64,000 nucleotides of DNA from assembly GCA_951406725.2 (NCBI GenBank), contig OX597824.1, forward strand, positions 40,610,001-40,674,000, read 5' to 3'. How positions within the stretch are numbered: the first letter of the stretch is position 1; every line of letters begins with the position of its first letter. Source of the stretch: Octopus vulgaris (Eukaryota). Made by a program: the position numbers. Of the stretch, positions 24,001-42,000 are shown piece by piece.

Positions 24001-27000
24001 CCGTCTTAAAAAAGGGGAGACATGCGGTATCTATTCTCGAAGGGGAGATGGTAATTGTTTGCATATATTCATTTCACGATGAAACATGGATTATTTCCCT
24101 TGGTCCATTCTAAGTATCCATTGGTCTGTATAAACGATAGTCCTATTCGTTTTGGTTTTGTACACGCAGACTTCTGCAGAACCATGGCTTTTCAACCGTG
24201 GCCATCTCATCCCTTAATATCGTAAATTGTATTATATTTAATTGAAAATGACTGCACAGAGTGGATTGGTATTTTCGTTTTTACGGATGACCTTTCTAAA
24301 TTAGAGGTTTTTACATCAAATACTACCTACCACACAATGAGTGTGCATCACCAGGTGTTCCATTATAATTCGAATATCTGATGCAGCAAACAAAAATATT
24401 TGGTGCATCAGAAATAGTCCTCCAATATGTAGGATCCATCTCAAATGAAATTTTTTCTTTTCTAGGTAAGCCCAGAGGTTTGAGAACTGCACGAAAGCTA
24501 AAGAATCATCGCCGTAAACAGAGATGGCACGATAATGACTACAAAAAGGCAAATTTGGGTACCAGATACAAAGCCAATCCTTTTGGCGGTTCTTCCCATG
24601 CTAAGGGAATCGTTTTAGAAAAAGTGTATGTATATTTGATTTTTTTTTTTTTTTTTCTCTCCCTAAATTTTGAATTTGTCCCTTTACTGCATCGCAAATT
24701 TTTTTTATGTATATCTATATGTGTATATATTCTCTTTTCAGTGGTGTTGAAGCCAAACAGCCTAACTCAGCCATCAGAAAATGTGTGAGAGTACAGCTCA
24801 TAAAGAATGGTAAAAAGATCACAGCCTTCGTACCTAATGATGGTTGTTTAAATTTCATTGAGGTTTGTTTCATTTATTTTTCGATTTCATACATGTAAAT
24901 ATGGTGATATTTAATAAGATCTATGCCAGAGGATGAGCTCTAATTTGTATCAGCTGATTTTGTCATACATGGAGAACACATTCCGGTTCTTGAGACTGAT
25001 GGCATATCTTTGGTGGGAAGTAATGGAATCTTCCCACTTGTGATTTGGACCTGCCTAACTTAATGTACCTGAAATGCCTCGATCAGTTGCATTTTAAGTT
25101 AAGGAAAGGTTCAGCACACTTGACTCCCTATCTTTTCTTTCCAGCTGTCTATCTCTAGTTTCTTTTATGTTCACCAAGTACCATTTTTCGTTTTTTCCAG
25201 GTGAGGAAATCATGTATCTCCTCTTCTGCAAGACACCTGTTCTATCACACTTTGGTTCCTTAATTGTGCACCCCAACTCAATCTTCAAGTTACCTCGCTA
25301 GTGCTAATACTCCCCCACACCCTAGAAGTACCCAGTTCACTGTGTAAAGTGGTTGACATTAGGAAGGGCATTTAACTATAGAAACCATGCCAAGGTAGAT
25401 ATTGGAGTTCATAGCAGTATTTGCAATTTTGATTTATTGGATATTCTATAACATTAAAAACTTAGGTTACAGCAAATTCATCAATTTTGGTAGCAATTTA
25501 TAAAGTGAGATGCCGGCTGTCTGTTTATAAGAATTATTTATAAGGAGGTTGGTATTACCATATCATCCATTTTTATTTCTTAAATAAATTATTCTTAATC
25601 TTAGGTTTGAAAGAACAGTACAAATAACTATCTGCTTTTGATTGGATAACCATTTTTGGGTTAACTCTGCTAGTTGGAATGTATAGTAAGATTTGATTTT
25701 CACTGTGGTAATTTAAGGTTTTCACTTGAAAAGGATGAAAGTTTTTCATGGCCTGAATTTGCCACAATGAAGGACAAACCATTTCTTGGGGGAGATGGTA
25801 TGTCATATTCGGACATTTTGACATAAGCAATTAGATGGGTTGTGTGTGTCTTATTTAATGATGTTACATTCTCCCCCAATATTTTGTTCATTTTTATCTC
25901 AATCAGTAGGGCAAAATTAATGAATTTGCAGTCACCAAGGTTTTAATGCCATAGAATATTCATTGGCTGAACTATTCCACAGAAACCAATGAACCCCAAT
26001 ATCTACCATAGCATGGTTTCTAGCTAAATGCCCTTCCTGATGTCAACCACATTACACAGTGAGCTGAGCACTAGTGGGATCACTGAGTAATTTGCAGACT
26101 GAAGTGTAATGGAACAGGACAAAATGCTTAGTGACAGTTCGTCCATATTTACATTTTGAGTTATTATACTGAATATTAAGAGGTTAAAAAAAGTGTTATA
26201 GAAGGGGCAGAAGCAGTTTGTTGTGGAGGTGAGAATAACTGGGCTTCAGTTTGTTGGTAAGAAAGATAAAAGATGGTGGGGACAGCTTGGGAAGGTGGCT
26301 GCTAGGGTGTTGTTAAAAAAAGGTAGGTGGTGGTCAGTGAGTTGTATGTAGGGAGGGAATGACGAATGTCATTAGAAGTGAATAAAATCTGTTAGGTTCA
26401 ATTCAGTTTGCCAAAGGATGAGCTCTAGCTTGTATATAACCTGATTTTGCCACTTACATGGAGGGTATACATTCTGGTTCTTGAGACTGATGGCATAACT
26501 TTAATAGGAAAATATGGCCTCTTAATATTCTGGGATGTAAAAACAAAGGGAGGGAAGAGTAAATCTTTGTTATGACTAAACTTGGTTGTGGGATTCTTGG
26601 GCTGACAGTGTTGTTTCCCCAGGATTTGGGATATAGAGTAATTTAAAATAAATTTGTAAGATTTGGCTATTACTGTATTCTGCTTGGAAATTTGTAGATG
26701 AAGCAGGTAAGAATATGCAAGCCTTTTTGCTGGCATAATTTCGTTGTATCTATATTCCACAACCCATTGGCTTTCTCCTCCTCCTCCCGTTTTAGTAGCT
26801 GTCATTGTCACAAGGTCATGAAGATATCTGAAGTGAATTGTCTTGTCAGAAACAACCGATTTCTTGTGGAGTCAATCCAAAAGAATGCCGAATAATTAAG
26901 AGGTGAAAAAAGTGTTATAGAAATGGCAGAAGCAGTTTGTCGTGGAGGTGGGGATAACTGGGCTTCAGTTGGTAAGAAAGATAAAAGATGGTGGGGACAG

Positions 27001-39000: not shown

Positions 39001-42000
39001 AACCCTGCGTTCACATACTCCCTCCACAACACTGATATCAAGAAATCCTCTTGCGAGCGTGACCTAGGCATCACTGTCAGCAGTGATTTGCGTTGGTCAA
39101 AGCATATCTCTAAGATTGTCAGGAAGGCCGAGGGTGTCTTGGCATCACTCAGCAGGTCTTTTGTTAGCCGCTCTCCAGCCATCTATTTAAAACTGTATAC
39201 AGCTATGGTACGACCACACTTGGAATTCGCATCATCAGTTTGGAACCCCTATCTTGCACAGAACATTGACCTCCTGGAATCTGTCCAGAGACGTGCAACC
39301 AAACGCATACCCTCCATCAGACACCTACCATATTCTGAGCGCCTTGTTTCCCTGGGCATGGATTCACTGAAGCTCCGGCGTTTGGCGACGGACTTGGTAA
39401 ACACCCACAAAGTTATCAACCACCTCACCAACAACAACACTGAACACCTTTTTGATCTCCATGTGTCTAACACACGTGGACATGCCTACAAAGTCAGAAA
39501 ACAATACAGCTCCCATGACTTTCGGAAACATTTTTTCACGCTCAGGGTTGCTGAAGCGTGGAATAAACTGCCTGCATCAGTTGTTGACTGCCATGACACT
39601 GCATCCTTTAAGGCCCTCATGCTTTCCGAAATCCGTCGAAACTACACCTGATTATATATACACTTTAGATGAGTTGTAGTGCACCTGAGCACTGTACACA
39701 ATTATTATTATTATTATTATTATATATTAATTGTAAAATTTTCATAACTATATATGGTTTCACAAGGTGAGCATTTTGAAGTCCTCTCATGATTAGATAT
39801 TAATGAACATTTGTCTTACTCATTGTTATTAGGTGTTAGAGGTTACTAAATGAAGCTTATATGATGAAGTATAAGTGGCGGACTGAAAATCATAATTTGA
39901 TGATCACTTATTCTGATAGCTTCTAGCATTTTAATAATTTGTCTTATGTTGTAATCTCTACAAAGACAGGCAGCATATTGTTGGGTTTCCATTTACTACA
40001 GTCTTTCATCTGTAATCTTTTGCTATATTCTGTGCTGCCTTTGTATCTTTCCAGCTTCGTACAGTTACCATCTCCCCTCCGGGTCACTCATTGAAGGCCT
40101 GTCAATAAATACTGCTTTAAATTTTCTTTTTCCTGGCATGCGTTTAACTCTATCAAATACTCTCTATTCTTTCATTTCCTTGGTTCTTTCTTCTATAGAG
40201 AGTCAAGTGGATCAGGGCAACTTTTTTTTTTTTTCTTCAATGTTGGTTGCTTAAAATTATTAATCATGTCCTTTGCCAGCAAATATTGAATTATTTGTCC
40301 TTATCTTTTCAGGAAAACGATGAAGTTTTGGTGGCTGGTTTTGGTCGAAAGGGTCATGCCGTTGGTGATATTCCTGGTGTCCGATTTAAGATTGTGAAAG
40401 TAGCTAATGTATCATTATTGGCTCTTTTTAAAGGAAAGAAGGAGAGACCCAGATCATAGACAATTTTATTTCATAAATGAATAAACAAAAATTACTTTAA
40501 AAATACTTGTCTTATTGAGTTCTGCTTCTTTGTTTTGCCATAAATCTCCTGCAGTGTGTGCAAGATTAATTTAACAAAGCTTCAGTCATCAGTTCAGTTC
40601 AGTTGAAGATGGAAGGAAGCTACATTTTATTTTCTATCATAACTGGTGTGTTTGTTACAGCAAGTATTGCAAGGAACTAGCTTGATAGGACTGGGATCCA
40701 TTGTGTGTAAAGCTGACCAAGACTACCAGTGCTCTCCGTCTGTGCCTTCCTACGTTGTGGATACTAACACATACTAAAGGATACTAAAAGTGGGAAATTG
40801 TAGGCCAATGTATATGCATATGTAGTTTTTCATTGGAAATGTGATGGTACTATCTGATGTTCTCAGGGCTCTGCTATTCTCTTTGAGAGAGGCCATGTTT
40901 ATGCTCCCTAGAGAATGGAAGGGACGCAGAGCTTTGTAAGGAACATTAAGCAAAGGTGTTTCCATAGGGAGTTCCATCTACTACTGACCGTATTTTTGTC
41001 CTTTGTAAGATCTCTGGCAGAAAGATGCAGAGATAATGTAAAAGCAGTCAGGATAATTTAGATTAGGTAACTTTTCTAGGCATGGTTGCTCTAGGAGTAA
41101 AAAATAGTTATGAGGTTTCATTCTCACCTGGAGGAGATGTGTGTCCTTTCTTTGGGGAAGAGGATAATAACCAACGGGTTTAGTAACTTTGATAGTCACA
41201 TGATGAGTTTTGCTAAATGTACGTTGAAAAACCATTTGAGCAAGGTCGTTGCCAGTACTGCTGGGCTGGCTCCTGTGCAGGTGGCATGTAAAAAAAACAC
41301 CATTTGAGCATGGCCATTGCCAGTACCACCTAACTGGCCCTCGTGCCGGTGGCACAAAGGCAACCACTACACTCGGAGTGGTTGGCGTTAGGAAGGGCTT
41401 CCGGCTGTAGAAACTCTGCCAGATCAGATTGTAGCCTGGTGCAATCCACGTTAGCATGGAAAGCAGACATTAAACGATGAAAAGGGATACTTTTGAGATC
41501 TATATGGACATAATCTGGTTTCAAAAGTGTAACCTGCTGAAAGCCAGTCTACTGCAAATACAGTGAAGTATCGTAGAGTAGCATGGGAGAGAACCCCACA
41601 AAGAGACAGATAGTGGACATGATTTGAGGAGGGCAAGGTAAATTTACTCGTGTTCTAGAGTGTAATATGTTGGGAAAGATCAAGGTGTTTGAAATAACAG
41701 CATACTTACTCTCATCACTTACAAATCTTATTACAAAACATTGATTGTACAAAATGATCAATTCGATGCTCAGAAAGACCAACTTATTTGGTACCAAGCT
41801 GCACTTCATTCTATGATACAAATCTTTGGCTTTAGGGCAATTCAAGTTAAAATCTTCCCCAAATTGCAGGTTAATCTATGTTCTAAATAGTTGAGTAAAT
41901 TTTTCATTATTTTAAAAATTAATTAAAACAAAATATATTTTTTACAGAAATATGGTAATGAAATTAATATGTTCAGAAAAGAGATCCATTGGCTGTAGTC

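What the first reader, a model, noticed from the sequence alone, without database searches (positions are those of the whole stretch)
24863..40312. A single RPS23 intron holds an array of ~15 box C/D snoRNAs from several families
Seen in sequence: 15 sense-strand units with box C, box D', box D and short terminal stems, in the order C,C,C,C,A,B,B,A,B,B,A,A*,A*(decayed),A*,[LINE],A*. Boxes and guides are conserved while the flanks diverge. Established knowledge: animal intronic snoRNAs are usually one per intron, released by debranching plus exonucleolytic trimming, and in mammals C/D types typically sit ~70-90 nt from the 3' splice site; polycistronic intronic clusters are mainly known in plants. 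Here even the last copy is ~400 nt from the exon 4 acceptor. Inference: this is a lineage-specific snoRNA expansion that needs a non-standard release route (hidden exons, recursive splicing or endonucleolytic cleavage), and it inflates this intron to 15 kb while intron 2 is only 116 nt.
Basis: partly seen in the sequence, partly recalled or inferred. Interest (0 to 1): 0.88.

Follow-up and report, generated by a model that had tools for sequence, protein, structure and literature searches.

The report
Octopus RPS23 intron snoRNA array
One 15-kb intron of an octopus ribosomal protein gene carries a tandemly duplicated array of 14 intact and 3 decayed small nucleolar RNA genes, a layout that is rare in animals but already known from flies, rice and green algae.

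Summary
Fourteen units are intact.

The pattern is far above chance: 11 canonical C/D loci on the + strand, 0 on the - strand, and a mean of 0.56 in 200 shuffles. No copy lies elsewhere in the window.

Boxes are invariant in 56 of 56 columns, against 100 of 153 other columns. snoRNA bodies are more conserved than homologous flanks in families C and A*.

Family A carries the 12-nt guide of the Rfam SNORD43 consensus, which guides 18S-C1703 in human. It still scores below the Rfam cut-off. Families B, C and A* match no Rfam family, and their targets could not be tested.

The array grew by local duplication. The exons are identical to Octopus bimaculoides uS12.

The expansion is real, but a "non-standard release route" is inference only. 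No regular hidden-exon pattern is seen, and single-intron snoRNA clusters already have an animal precedent in Drosophila. There are no expression data.

Verdict: new member of a known kind, moderate interest.

The parts
22081..22084 (+). End of RPS23 exon 1: ATG plus the first base of codon 2. A GTAAGT donor follows at 22085. A pyrimidine (TOP-like) run lies at 22058-22065.
   Evidence: Read from the sequence. It joins in frame to exon 2 to give M-G-K. The exon 2 peptide starts at residue 3 of PDB uS12. The 5' end of the exon was not determined.
24466..24625 (+). RPS23 exon 2
   Evidence: Splice sites read. The 52-aa translation is 52/52 identical to uS12 of PDB 9EHO.
24742..24862 (+). RPS23 exon 3
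   Evidence: Pfam PF00164, E 1.2e-18, profile positions 23-62.
24863..40312 (+). RPS23 intron 3 (15,450 nt), host of the array
   Evidence: GTTTGT donor and TTTTCAG acceptor. The Pfam profile continues from position 62 to 63 across it.
24924..25004 (+). C1, family C box C/D unit (box C AGGAUGA, D', D, 5-7 bp stem)
   Evidence: nhmmer E 1.7e-23. Body 0.83-0.85 identical to C2-C4, with flanks at the null value of 0.5.
25732..25797 (+). Decayed C-like relic (box D lost)
   Evidence: nhmmer E 0.11. Read. Rfam SNORD57-like weak hit, as for the intact C units.
26409..26495 (+). C2
   Evidence: Body 96.6% against flank 85.0% versus C3.
27146..27230 (+). C3
27692..27778 (+). C4
28246..28322 (+). A1, SNORD43-like C/D unit
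   Evidence: (SNORD43, 21.5 bits).
28817..28885 (+). B1, family B C/D unit with a perfect 6-7 bp terminal stem
   Evidence: (SNORD2, 30.2 bits, below the cut-off of 37).
29502..29570 (+). B2
31249..31325 (+). A2
31814..31881 (+). B3 (one mismatch in the terminal stem; external stem further out)
32879..32945 (+). B4 (stem mismatch; G-to-C change at guide position 5 upstream of D')
33712..33786 (+). A3, SNORD43-like; the A copy closest in sequence to A*
   Evidence: SNORD43, 22.4 bits, E 0.0097 in 201 nt; the 12-nt guide and the stretch after box C' are identical to the consensus.
34881..34944 (+). Decayed A*-like relic (box C and D' broken)
   Evidence: nhmmer E 1.1e-7. Read.
35386..35456 (+). 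A*1, an A derivative with a shortened, different D' guide
   Evidence: Body 98.6% against flank 77.1% versus A*3.
36200..36264 (+). A*2, decayed (box C and guide changed)
   Evidence: (E 3.8e-8).
36783..36853 (+). A*3
37228..39648 (+). 5'-truncated LINE in sense orientation, with an 807-aa open frame
   Evidence: Pfam RVT_1 3e-37, Exo_endo_phos_2 1e-11, and Exo_endo_phos profile positions 134-225 of 225.
39853..39923 (+). A*4, the last unit, 389 nt before the exon 4 acceptor
40313..40459 (+). RPS23 exon 4 coding part with the stop codon
   Evidence: Pfam PF00164, E 8.2e-17, profile positions 63-109. 48/48 identical to 9EHO uS12.

Best explanation
This is an intronic gene cluster of box C/D snoRNA genes in intron 3 of an octopus RPS23 (uS12) gene.

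Origin. The cluster arose by repeated local duplication:
- a C sub-array with spacing of 0.55-0.8 kb
- an A-B-B block duplicated at about 2.5-3 kb
- an A* sub-array with spacing of 0.5-0.8 kb, later split by a LINE

Expression (inferred). All units are sense to the host and have no recognisable promoters of their own. They are most likely made from the RPS23 pre-mRNA. Boxes C and D plus the terminal stem of each unit would nucleate a snoRNP. The RNAs would be freed from the intron by cuts in the spacers and exonucleolytic trimming up to the snoRNP. Simple trimming from the two intron ends can only reach the first and last unit.

Function. Family A is the octopus counterpart of SNORD43 and should guide 2'-O-methylation of the conserved decoding-centre cytidine of 18S rRNA (human C1703). 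Families B, C and A* are C/D snoRNAs with other guides. A* derives from an A3-like copy by a short deletion in the guide. Their targets are unknown.

Shown: anatomy, duplication history, and sequence constraint on boxes and guides.
Inferred: co-transcription, snoRNP assembly, the release route, and the targets.
For: Host gene and intron borders.

Fourteen intact units have box C, D', D and a terminal stem that starts at or within a few bases of the boxes.

Strand and place specificity. There are 11 loci on the + strand of the intron, 0 on the - strand, and a mean of 0.56 in 200 shuffles. Family HMMs find nothing outside the intron; the best outside E-value is 0.73.

Constraint:
- 56 of 56 box columns are invariant against 100 of 153 other columns, p 3e-9.
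- In old pairs, bodies are 0.76-0.85 identical while flanks sit at the null value (0.50, 99th percentile 0.57).
- Inside homologous duplicated blocks the body exceeds the flank: C2-C3 96.6 vs 85.0% (p 0.001), C3-C4 96.6 vs 75.9% (p 6e-6), A*1-A*3 98.6 vs 77.1% (p 2e-6), A*1-A*4 95.8 vs 79.5% (p 0.01).
- A2 and A3 differ at 17 of 77 columns, and none falls in the 26 box and guide columns (p 3e-4).

Family A. The 12-nt D' guide and the 9 nt at and after box C' are identical to the Rfam SNORD43 consensus. SNORD43 guides 18S-C1703 (PMC7114786 passage).

Local duplication blocks that include flanks.

Against: No expression, RNP or methylation data exist here, so none of the copies is shown to make a stable RNA.

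Nothing reaches an Rfam gathering score. SNORD43 scores 19.9-22.4 bits against a cut-off of 45.

For B1-B2 (p 0.06) and B3-B4 (p 0.16) the body is not significantly better conserved than the flank.

The A2 and A3 bodies (78% identical) are no better conserved overall than the 399-nt block duplicated with them (82%).

Three units are decayed. B3 and B4 have stem mismatches, and B4 is changed at guide position 5.

Gene conversion could add to the body-versus-flank contrast in young pairs.

Terminal-stem energies taken one by one are only modestly better than shuffles (fraction of shuffles at least as good: 0.01-0.24).

Targets of B, C and A* are untested. No convincing complement exists in the window.
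Confidence: 0.7

Rival explanations
1. Mostly dead duplicates. One copy per family (or only family A) is a working snoRNA. The rest are young or decaying pseudogenes carried along by segmental duplication, and their conservation reflects age or gene conversion rather than function.
For: Three of 17 units are plainly decayed. B3 and B4 have mismatched stems and B4 has a change at guide position 5. The shortened A* guide has lost most of the A-type complementarity. B pairs show no significant body-versus-flank contrast. Young pairs (C2-C4, B1-B2, A*1-A*3) are 97-99% identical and therefore carry little information.
Against: A1, A2 and A3 have flanks at null identity but keep every box and 11 of 12 guide columns. 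C1 against C2-C4 is 0.83-0.85 in the body with flanks at 0.5. A*4 against A*1 and A*3 is 94-96% in the body and 79% in the flank. The truly decayed copies show what neutral decay looks like in this intron.
Confidence: 0.2
2. Hidden exons. The '15-kb intron' is in fact cut into several introns by unannotated, non-coding or NMD-targeted exons. Each snoRNA, or each few, would then sit in its own intron as in UHG/SNHG-type hosts, and processing would be the standard splicing-coupled one.
For: A strong acceptor-like site lies with its first downstream base at 40002, 78 nt after A*4. That is the canonical distance quoted for intronic C/D snoRNAs (PMC5054931 passage). Acceptor-like and donor-like motifs are commoner on the + strand (19 vs 7 and 29 vs 17).
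Against: Only 1 of 14 intact units has an acceptor-like site 40-120 nt downstream, about what chance gives at 19 sites per 15.4 kb. Flanks of old paralogues keep no conserved element beyond about 30 nt. The + strand excess fits the T-richness of that strand.
Confidence: 0.15
3. Independent genes. Each unit has its own promoter and is transcribed on its own inside the intron.
For: Nothing positive was found. The 15-30 nt next to some units are conserved between paralogues.
Against: All 17 units are sense to the host. Upstream 100-nt flanks of old paralogues are at null identity. No shared upstream motif is seen in the alignments.
Confidence: 0.05
4. Retroposed snoRNA copies (snoRNA retroposons or SINE-like spread) that happened to pile up in this intron.
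For: snoRNAs are known to be mobile (PMC3412847 and PMC2817437 abstracts, seen in the listings).
Against: No copy lies in the other 48.5 kb of the window. All are in one orientation. No A-rich tails follow the units. Duplicated blocks include hundreds of bases of flank.
Confidence: 0.03

Closest known systems
Intronic snoRNA gene clusters of Drosophila melanogaster, rice and Chlamydomonas
   Same: Several snoRNA genes, often paralogous isoforms made by local duplication, lie in one intron of a host gene and are sense to it (PMC2780460 passage; titles of Huang et al. 2004 and 2005 and Chen et al. 2008 seen in reference lists).
   Different: Here the host is a ribosomal protein gene of a cephalopod. 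The array is made only of box C/D units (14 intact, 4 sequence families) and spans 15 kb. By recall only (the Huang papers are not held), the fly clusters are mostly H/ACA. Processing is unstudied here.
SNORD43 (Rfam RF00221; yeast snR70 by recall)
   Same: Family A has the same 12-nt D' guide, the same stretch at and after box C', and a similar length. SNORD43 guides 18S-C1703 (PMC7114786 passage).
   Different: Scores are 19.9-22.4 bits, below the gathering score of 45. There are three copies plus an A* offshoot with a changed guide. The host is RPS23; the human host is RPL3 by recall.
sno-lncRNAs (introns with two snoRNAs whose internal sequence is protected)
   Same: The stated prerequisite, more than one snoRNA in a single intron, is met many times over (PMC5054931 passages; PMC4696412 passage).
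   Different: Those are pairs in human introns. Here there are up to 14 units. Nothing here shows that any inter-snoRNA RNA accumulates.
Polycistronic snoRNA precursors of plants and yeast, cut by RNase III-type enzymes
   Same: Many snoRNAs lie on one precursor, so internal ones need endonucleolytic release before trimming (PMC5122169 passage).
   Different: Those are mostly non-intronic transcription units. No animal enzyme or cleavage signal is identified here.
SNORD115/SNORD116-type repeated hosts (one snoRNA per intron of a repeated exon-intron unit)
   Same: Tandem repeats of C/D snoRNA paralogues, some of them orphan.
   Different: There each repeat carries its own exon and splice sites. 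Here no conserved splice-site pair accompanies the units.

Membership tests
Box C/D snoRNA (class) | Box C (RUGAUGA) near the 5' end and box D (CUGA) near the 3' end | tested here: met
   10 of 14 intact units have the canonical box C. The 4 C units have AGGAUGA, one deviation. Box D is present in 14 of 14.
Box C/D snoRNA (class) | Short terminal stem bringing boxes C and D together | tested here: met
   5-9 bp start at or within a few bases of the boxes in all units. B3 and B4 have one mismatch and an external stem. Energies taken singly are only modestly above shuffles.
Box C/D snoRNA (class) | Internal D' (and C') boxes, size 60-90 nt | tested here: met
   D' CUGA is invariant in all four families. 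C' is canonical in A1 and A*, one letter off in A2 and A3, and degenerate in B and C. Unit lengths are 67-87 nt.
Box C/D snoRNA (class) | Guide of 10 nt or more complementary to a target RNA, ending next to D or D' | tested here: inconclusive
   Family A shares its guide with the SNORD43 consensus. For B, C and A* no rRNA or snRNA of the species was available. There is no convincing complement in the window.
Box C/D snoRNA (class) | Stable RNA bound by fibrillarin, NOP56, NOP58 and SNU13 | not testable with these tools
SNORD43 (RF00221) | Score at or above Rfam's gathering score (45 bits) | tested here: not met
   A3 22.4, A1 21.5, A2 19.9 bits. No hit at gathering threshold.
SNORD43 (RF00221) | Guide for the decoding-centre cytidine of 18S rRNA | tested here: met
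   12 of 12 guide letters are identical to the model consensus in A3. The guide is invariant in A1-A3 apart from the letter next to D'. That it pairs with octopus 18S was not tested.
SNORD2 (RF01299) | Gathering score (37 bits) and shared guide | tested here: not met
   B1 30.2 and B2 26.2 bits. The match rests on the stem and the boxes, and the guide letters differ (alignment).
Intronic snoRNA gene cluster | Two or more snoRNA genes within one intron, sense to the host | tested here: met
   17 units lie between the exon 3 donor and the exon 4 acceptor, and the Pfam profile is contiguous across the intron.
Intronic snoRNA gene cluster | All are processed from that one intron (no internal exons) | not testable with these tools
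   Only a motif scan was possible, and it shows no regular splice-site pattern.
UHG/SNHG-type host (one snoRNA per intron) | An acceptor about 70-80 nt downstream of each C/D unit and an exon between units | tested here: inconclusive
   1 of 14 units has an acceptor-like site 40-120 nt downstream. A motif scan cannot exclude weak or unusual exons.

The most novel reading that the evidence does not exclude
The whole 15-kb intron is excised as one piece. It yields up to 14 snoRNAs by a splicing-independent, endonuclease-dependent route not yet described for animal C/D snoRNAs, possibly together with long snoRNA-capped intron fragments. The three families without Rfam relatives (B, C and the retargeted A*) would guide octopus-lineage-specific modification or processing of RNA. 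One example could be events linked to the octopus-specific 28S rRNA peculiarities reported in PMC13321053. Nothing here links them to those peculiarities.
Probability: 0.12. Interest if true: 0.75.

Novelty: new member of a known kind. Interest (0 to 1): 0.5.

Why it matters
If the copies are expressed, this intron would be one of the largest single-intron box C/D snoRNA arrays reported in an animal. It sits in a gene transcribed at ribosomal-protein levels.

It offers a natural test of how internal snoRNAs are released from a long intron. Exonucleolytic trimming from the intron ends can reach only the first and last unit.

It also shows snoRNA birth and death side by side:
- a conserved SNORD43-type guide kept in three copies
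- a derived paralogue (A*) with a shortened guide that is itself under constraint
- three decayed relics

For annotation, Rfam at its curated thresholds finds none of the units. Cephalopod snoRNA counts based on Rfam homology may therefore be underestimates (for example the 118 C/D loci in the giant squid; PMC6962438 passage).

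Tried and rejected
- Rfam at gathering thresholds over the whole window: 0 matches.
- Rfam at E up to 10: only sub-threshold C/D hits. Family C's best is SNORD57 at 16 bits. A*'s best is snoR21 at 21.7 bits. 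Neither shares a guide.
- Search for complements of eight guide elements in the window: only G-U-rich runs, nothing convincing.
- Hidden-exon scan: no regular pattern.
- A piggyBac-like reading of the minus-strand frames between B2 and A2: 0 Pfam families for 4 pieces, so dropped.
- The 128-148-aa open frames on the minus strand of the C array: 0 Pfam families for the 2 tested.
- Tandem Repeats Finder misses the array because the periods exceed 500.
- First identity measure with free end gaps was too noisy and was replaced by global alignment.
- Terminal-stem energy against shuffles is weak for single units.
- Huang et al. 2005 (PMC1370813) is not held. What is said of the fly clusters beyond titles and the PMC2780460 passage is recall.
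- Literature searches found no description of this array or of cephalopod snoRNA organisation.
- PMC13736004 has none of the searched terms.
- Not done: the joined (spliced) RPS23 coding sequence was not assembled or searched. Exons were searched one by one.
- Not possible: comparison with other cephalopod or mollusc genomes.
- Not possible: pairing of guides with octopus rRNA or snRNA.
- Not possible: reading supplementary tables of the Drosophila and Xenopus snoRNA papers, which may list more single-intron clusters.

Full report
HOST GENE. The + strand carries an RPS23/uS12 gene.
- Exon 2 is 24466-24625, exon 3 is 24742-24862, and the exon 4 coding part is 40313-40456.
- These are separated by a 116-nt intron 2 (24626-24741) and a 15,450-nt intron 3 (24863-40312). 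Donors, acceptors and reading phase were read.
- The exons were searched one by one. The joined coding sequence was deliberately not assembled or searched.
- Exon 3 and exon 4 match Pfam PF00164 at adjoining profile positions, 23-62 and 63-109 (E 1.2e-18 and 8.2e-17). Exon 2 matches eukaryotic uS12 chains in the PDB.
- Exon 2 (52/52) and exon 4 (48/48) are identical to chain YY of PDB 9EHO. That entry is the Octopus bimaculoides ribosome (PMC13321053, passages). So the window comes from an octopus or a very close relative.
- Exon 1 is inferred from sequence only: ATG at 22081-22083, a GTAAGT donor at 22085, and a pyrimidine run just upstream.

THE UNITS. Coordinates are in the parts list.
- Family profile searches of the whole window (nhmmer) recover every unit. 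They add two relics: an A*-like one at 34881-34944 (E 1.1e-7; box C and D' broken) and a weaker C-like one at 25732-25797 (E 0.11; box D lost).
- They find nothing outside intron 3. The best outside E-value is 0.73.
- The array is therefore 17 units, 14 of them intact.
- The 'LINE' is a 5'-truncated element in sense orientation with an 807-aa open frame holding endonuclease and reverse-transcriptase domains.
- The first unit starts 61 nt after the donor. The last ends 389 nt before the acceptor.

CHANCE. I scanned for a canonical box C, a box D 45-130 nt later, and at least 4 of 5 pairs next to the boxes.
- Intron 3, + strand: 11 distinct loci (10 family units plus an unverified singleton at 34292).
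- Intron 3, - strand: 0.
- The other 48.5 kb: 5 (+) and 5 (-).
- 200 dinucleotide shuffles of the intron: mean 0.56, maximum 4.
- The four C units have AGGAUGA as box C and are not counted by this scan.

CONSTRAINT.
- In old paralogue pairs the bodies are 0.76-0.85 identical (A1/A2/A3, B1-2 against B3-4, C1 against C2-4). For A*4 against A*1 and A*3 they are 0.94-0.96.
- The 100-nt flanks are 0.47-0.59 identical. Unrelated intron segments give 0.50 (sd 0.03, 99th percentile 0.57, n = 500).
- Inside blocks that are still alignable, the body is less diverged than the flank: C2-C3 84/87 against 470/553, p 0.001; C2-C4 p 0.006; C3-C4 p 6e-6; A*1-A*3 70/71 against 168/218, p 2e-6; A*1-A*4 p 0.01; A*3-A*4 p 0.014.
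- It is not significantly so for B1-B2 (p 0.06) or B3-B4 (p 0.16).
- Column classes were set beforehand from C/D architecture. All 56 box columns (C, D' and D in four families) are invariant, against 100 of 153 remaining columns (p 3e-9).
- One guide per family stands out: D' in A (11/12) and B (10/12), D in C (11/12), and both in A* (12/12 each).
- A2 and A3 differ at 17 of 77 columns, and none is in the 26 box and guide columns (p 3e-4).

One oddity remains. A2 and A3 were duplicated together with a 399-nt block that is 82% identical. The two snoRNA bodies are only 78% identical, so their non-core positions have changed at least as fast as the flank.

WHAT THE FAMILIES ARE. Rfam finds nothing at its curated thresholds.
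- Family A. Below threshold, it is SNORD43-like (19.9-22.4 bits against a cut-off of 45). In the printed alignment the 12-nt D' guide, and the 9 nt at and after box C', are identical to the model consensus. SNORD43 guides 18S-C1703 in human (PMC7114786, passages). By the position-5 rule (established knowledge), the octopus guide would place the methyl group on the cytidine opposite its fifth letter upstream of D'. I therefore treat A as working like SNORD43, while noting that the formal Rfam membership score is not met.
- Family B. It scores 30.2 and 26.2 bits on SNORD2 (cut-off 37), but only through the stem and the boxes. The guide differs.
- Families C and A*. Neither has a meaningful Rfam relative.
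- Origin of A*. The A model hits A* at E about 1e-6. A* is closest to the neighbouring A3. Its D' guide lacks about four letters of the A guide and keeps only the D'-proximal part. An internal helix between the 5' part of the D' guide and the stretch after C' is kept in A, in A* and in the SNORD43 consensus.
- Signs of decay. B4 carries a G-to-C change exactly at guide position 5. B3 and B4 have a mismatch in the terminal stem.

Targets of B, C and A* could not be tested. No rRNA or snRNA of the species is available here, and the window holds no convincing complement.

HOW THE ARRAY AROSE. Self-comparison of the intron shows local duplication with flanks included:
- 26166-26767 against 26885-27507 (87%, 640 nt), plus a third C repeat
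- 28691-28938 against 29377-29622 (92%)
- 30569-30966 plus A2 against 33277-33671 plus A3
- 35344-35621 against 36741-37025 (82%)

Start-to-start spacings are 808, 677, 737 and 546 nt in the C sub-array. In the A* sub-array they are 505, 814, 583 and 3070 nt, the last including the LINE. There are no A-rich tails and no dispersed copies in the window. This argues against retroposition.

HOW IT LIKELY WORKS. What is shown is the anatomy and the constraint. The rest is inferred.
- All units are sense to RPS23, and no upstream element is conserved between old paralogues. Co-transcription with the host is therefore the simplest reading.
- In the standard animal route, snoRNPs protect the snoRNA while the debranched intron is trimmed from its ends, and a position about 70 nt before the acceptor favours expression (PMC5054931, passages).
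- With 14 units in one intron, end-trimming reaches only C1 and A*4. Two snoRNAs in one intron are indeed the stated prerequisite for snoRNA-ended long RNAs. Internal units therefore need cuts in the spacers, as in plant polycistrons (PMC5122169, passage), or else unannotated exons.
- The motif scan does not support a regular hidden-exon design. Only 1 of 14 units has an acceptor-like site 40-120 nt downstream.
- That one case (first downstream base at 40002, 78 nt after A*4) is worth testing, although it is what chance would give.
- Extended or external flanking stems and a small hairpin just 3' of the C units (one compensatory pair) are possible aids to splicing-independent assembly or cleavage. 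The idea that external stems compensate for a poor intron position is recalled from Hirose and Steitz and was not seen here.

COMPARISON AND NOVELTY. [quoted passage not shown] They are extensive in Chlamydomonas (title only).

My searches found no description of snoRNA organisation in cephalopods or of an RPS23-hosted array. The giant-squid genome paper only counts Rfam-homologous loci (passage). Supplementary tables of the fly and frog snoRNA papers were closed and may hold further single-intron clusters.

I file the array as a new member of a known kind. It is notable for its size, for being all C/D, and for showing a conserved guide, a retargeted offshoot and dead copies side by side.

LIMITS. 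No expression, RNP, methylation or cross-species data could be obtained. The open contig collection holds only bacteria and archaea.

Noticed in passing
One is A*-like (E 1.1e-7) and one is C-like (E 0.11). They bring the array to 17 units and show what neutral decay looks like in this intron.
   Followed up: partly
window 34292-34396: A singleton C/D-like candidate with a canonical box C at 34292 and two possible box D ends (34371, 34396). It has no paralogue and no Rfam hit, and the scan expects about 0.6 chance loci, so it is unverified.
   Followed up: no
window about 39985-40002: A strong acceptor-like site (pyrimidine tract plus CAG), with its first downstream base at 40002, lies 78 nt after the last snoRNA and 311 nt before the real exon 4 acceptor. 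It is a possible alternative 3' splice site.
   Followed up: no
window about 25017-25042 and the matching places after C2-C4: A small hairpin lies immediately 3' of each family C unit. It is a perfect 8-bp stem after C1 and weaker after C2-C4, with one compensatory pair in the consensus fold.
   Followed up: partly
window 30569-30966 and 33277-33671; insert 30967-31216: A 399-nt block (82% identical) occurs only at these two places in the window, upstream of A2 and A3. The A2 copy has a 250-nt insert holding a dispersed repeat that is also seen at 46900-46977, 63732-63865 and 31413-31503.
   Followed up: partly
window 37228-39648 and 50680-51464 (- strand): A sense-strand, 5'-truncated LINE with an uninterrupted 807-aa frame (endonuclease remnant plus RT) lies inside the intron. 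A diverged piece of a related element (67% over 844 nt) lies downstream on the other strand.
   Followed up: partly
window 53263-53667 (+): An open frame of 135 aa matches Pfam DUF7083 (E 1.2e-13). It is probably part of a mobile element.
   Followed up: no
window 26425-28072 (- strand): Three open frames of 128-148 aa lie on the strand opposite the C repeats. The two tested had no Pfam match. They are most likely a by-product of the repeat and of the strong G-over-C skew of this stretch.
   Followed up: partly
window 24466-24625 and 40313-40456: The exon 2 and exon 4 peptides are letter-for-letter identical to uS12 of the Octopus bimaculoides ribosome structure 9EHO. This places the window in an octopus.
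   Followed up: yes
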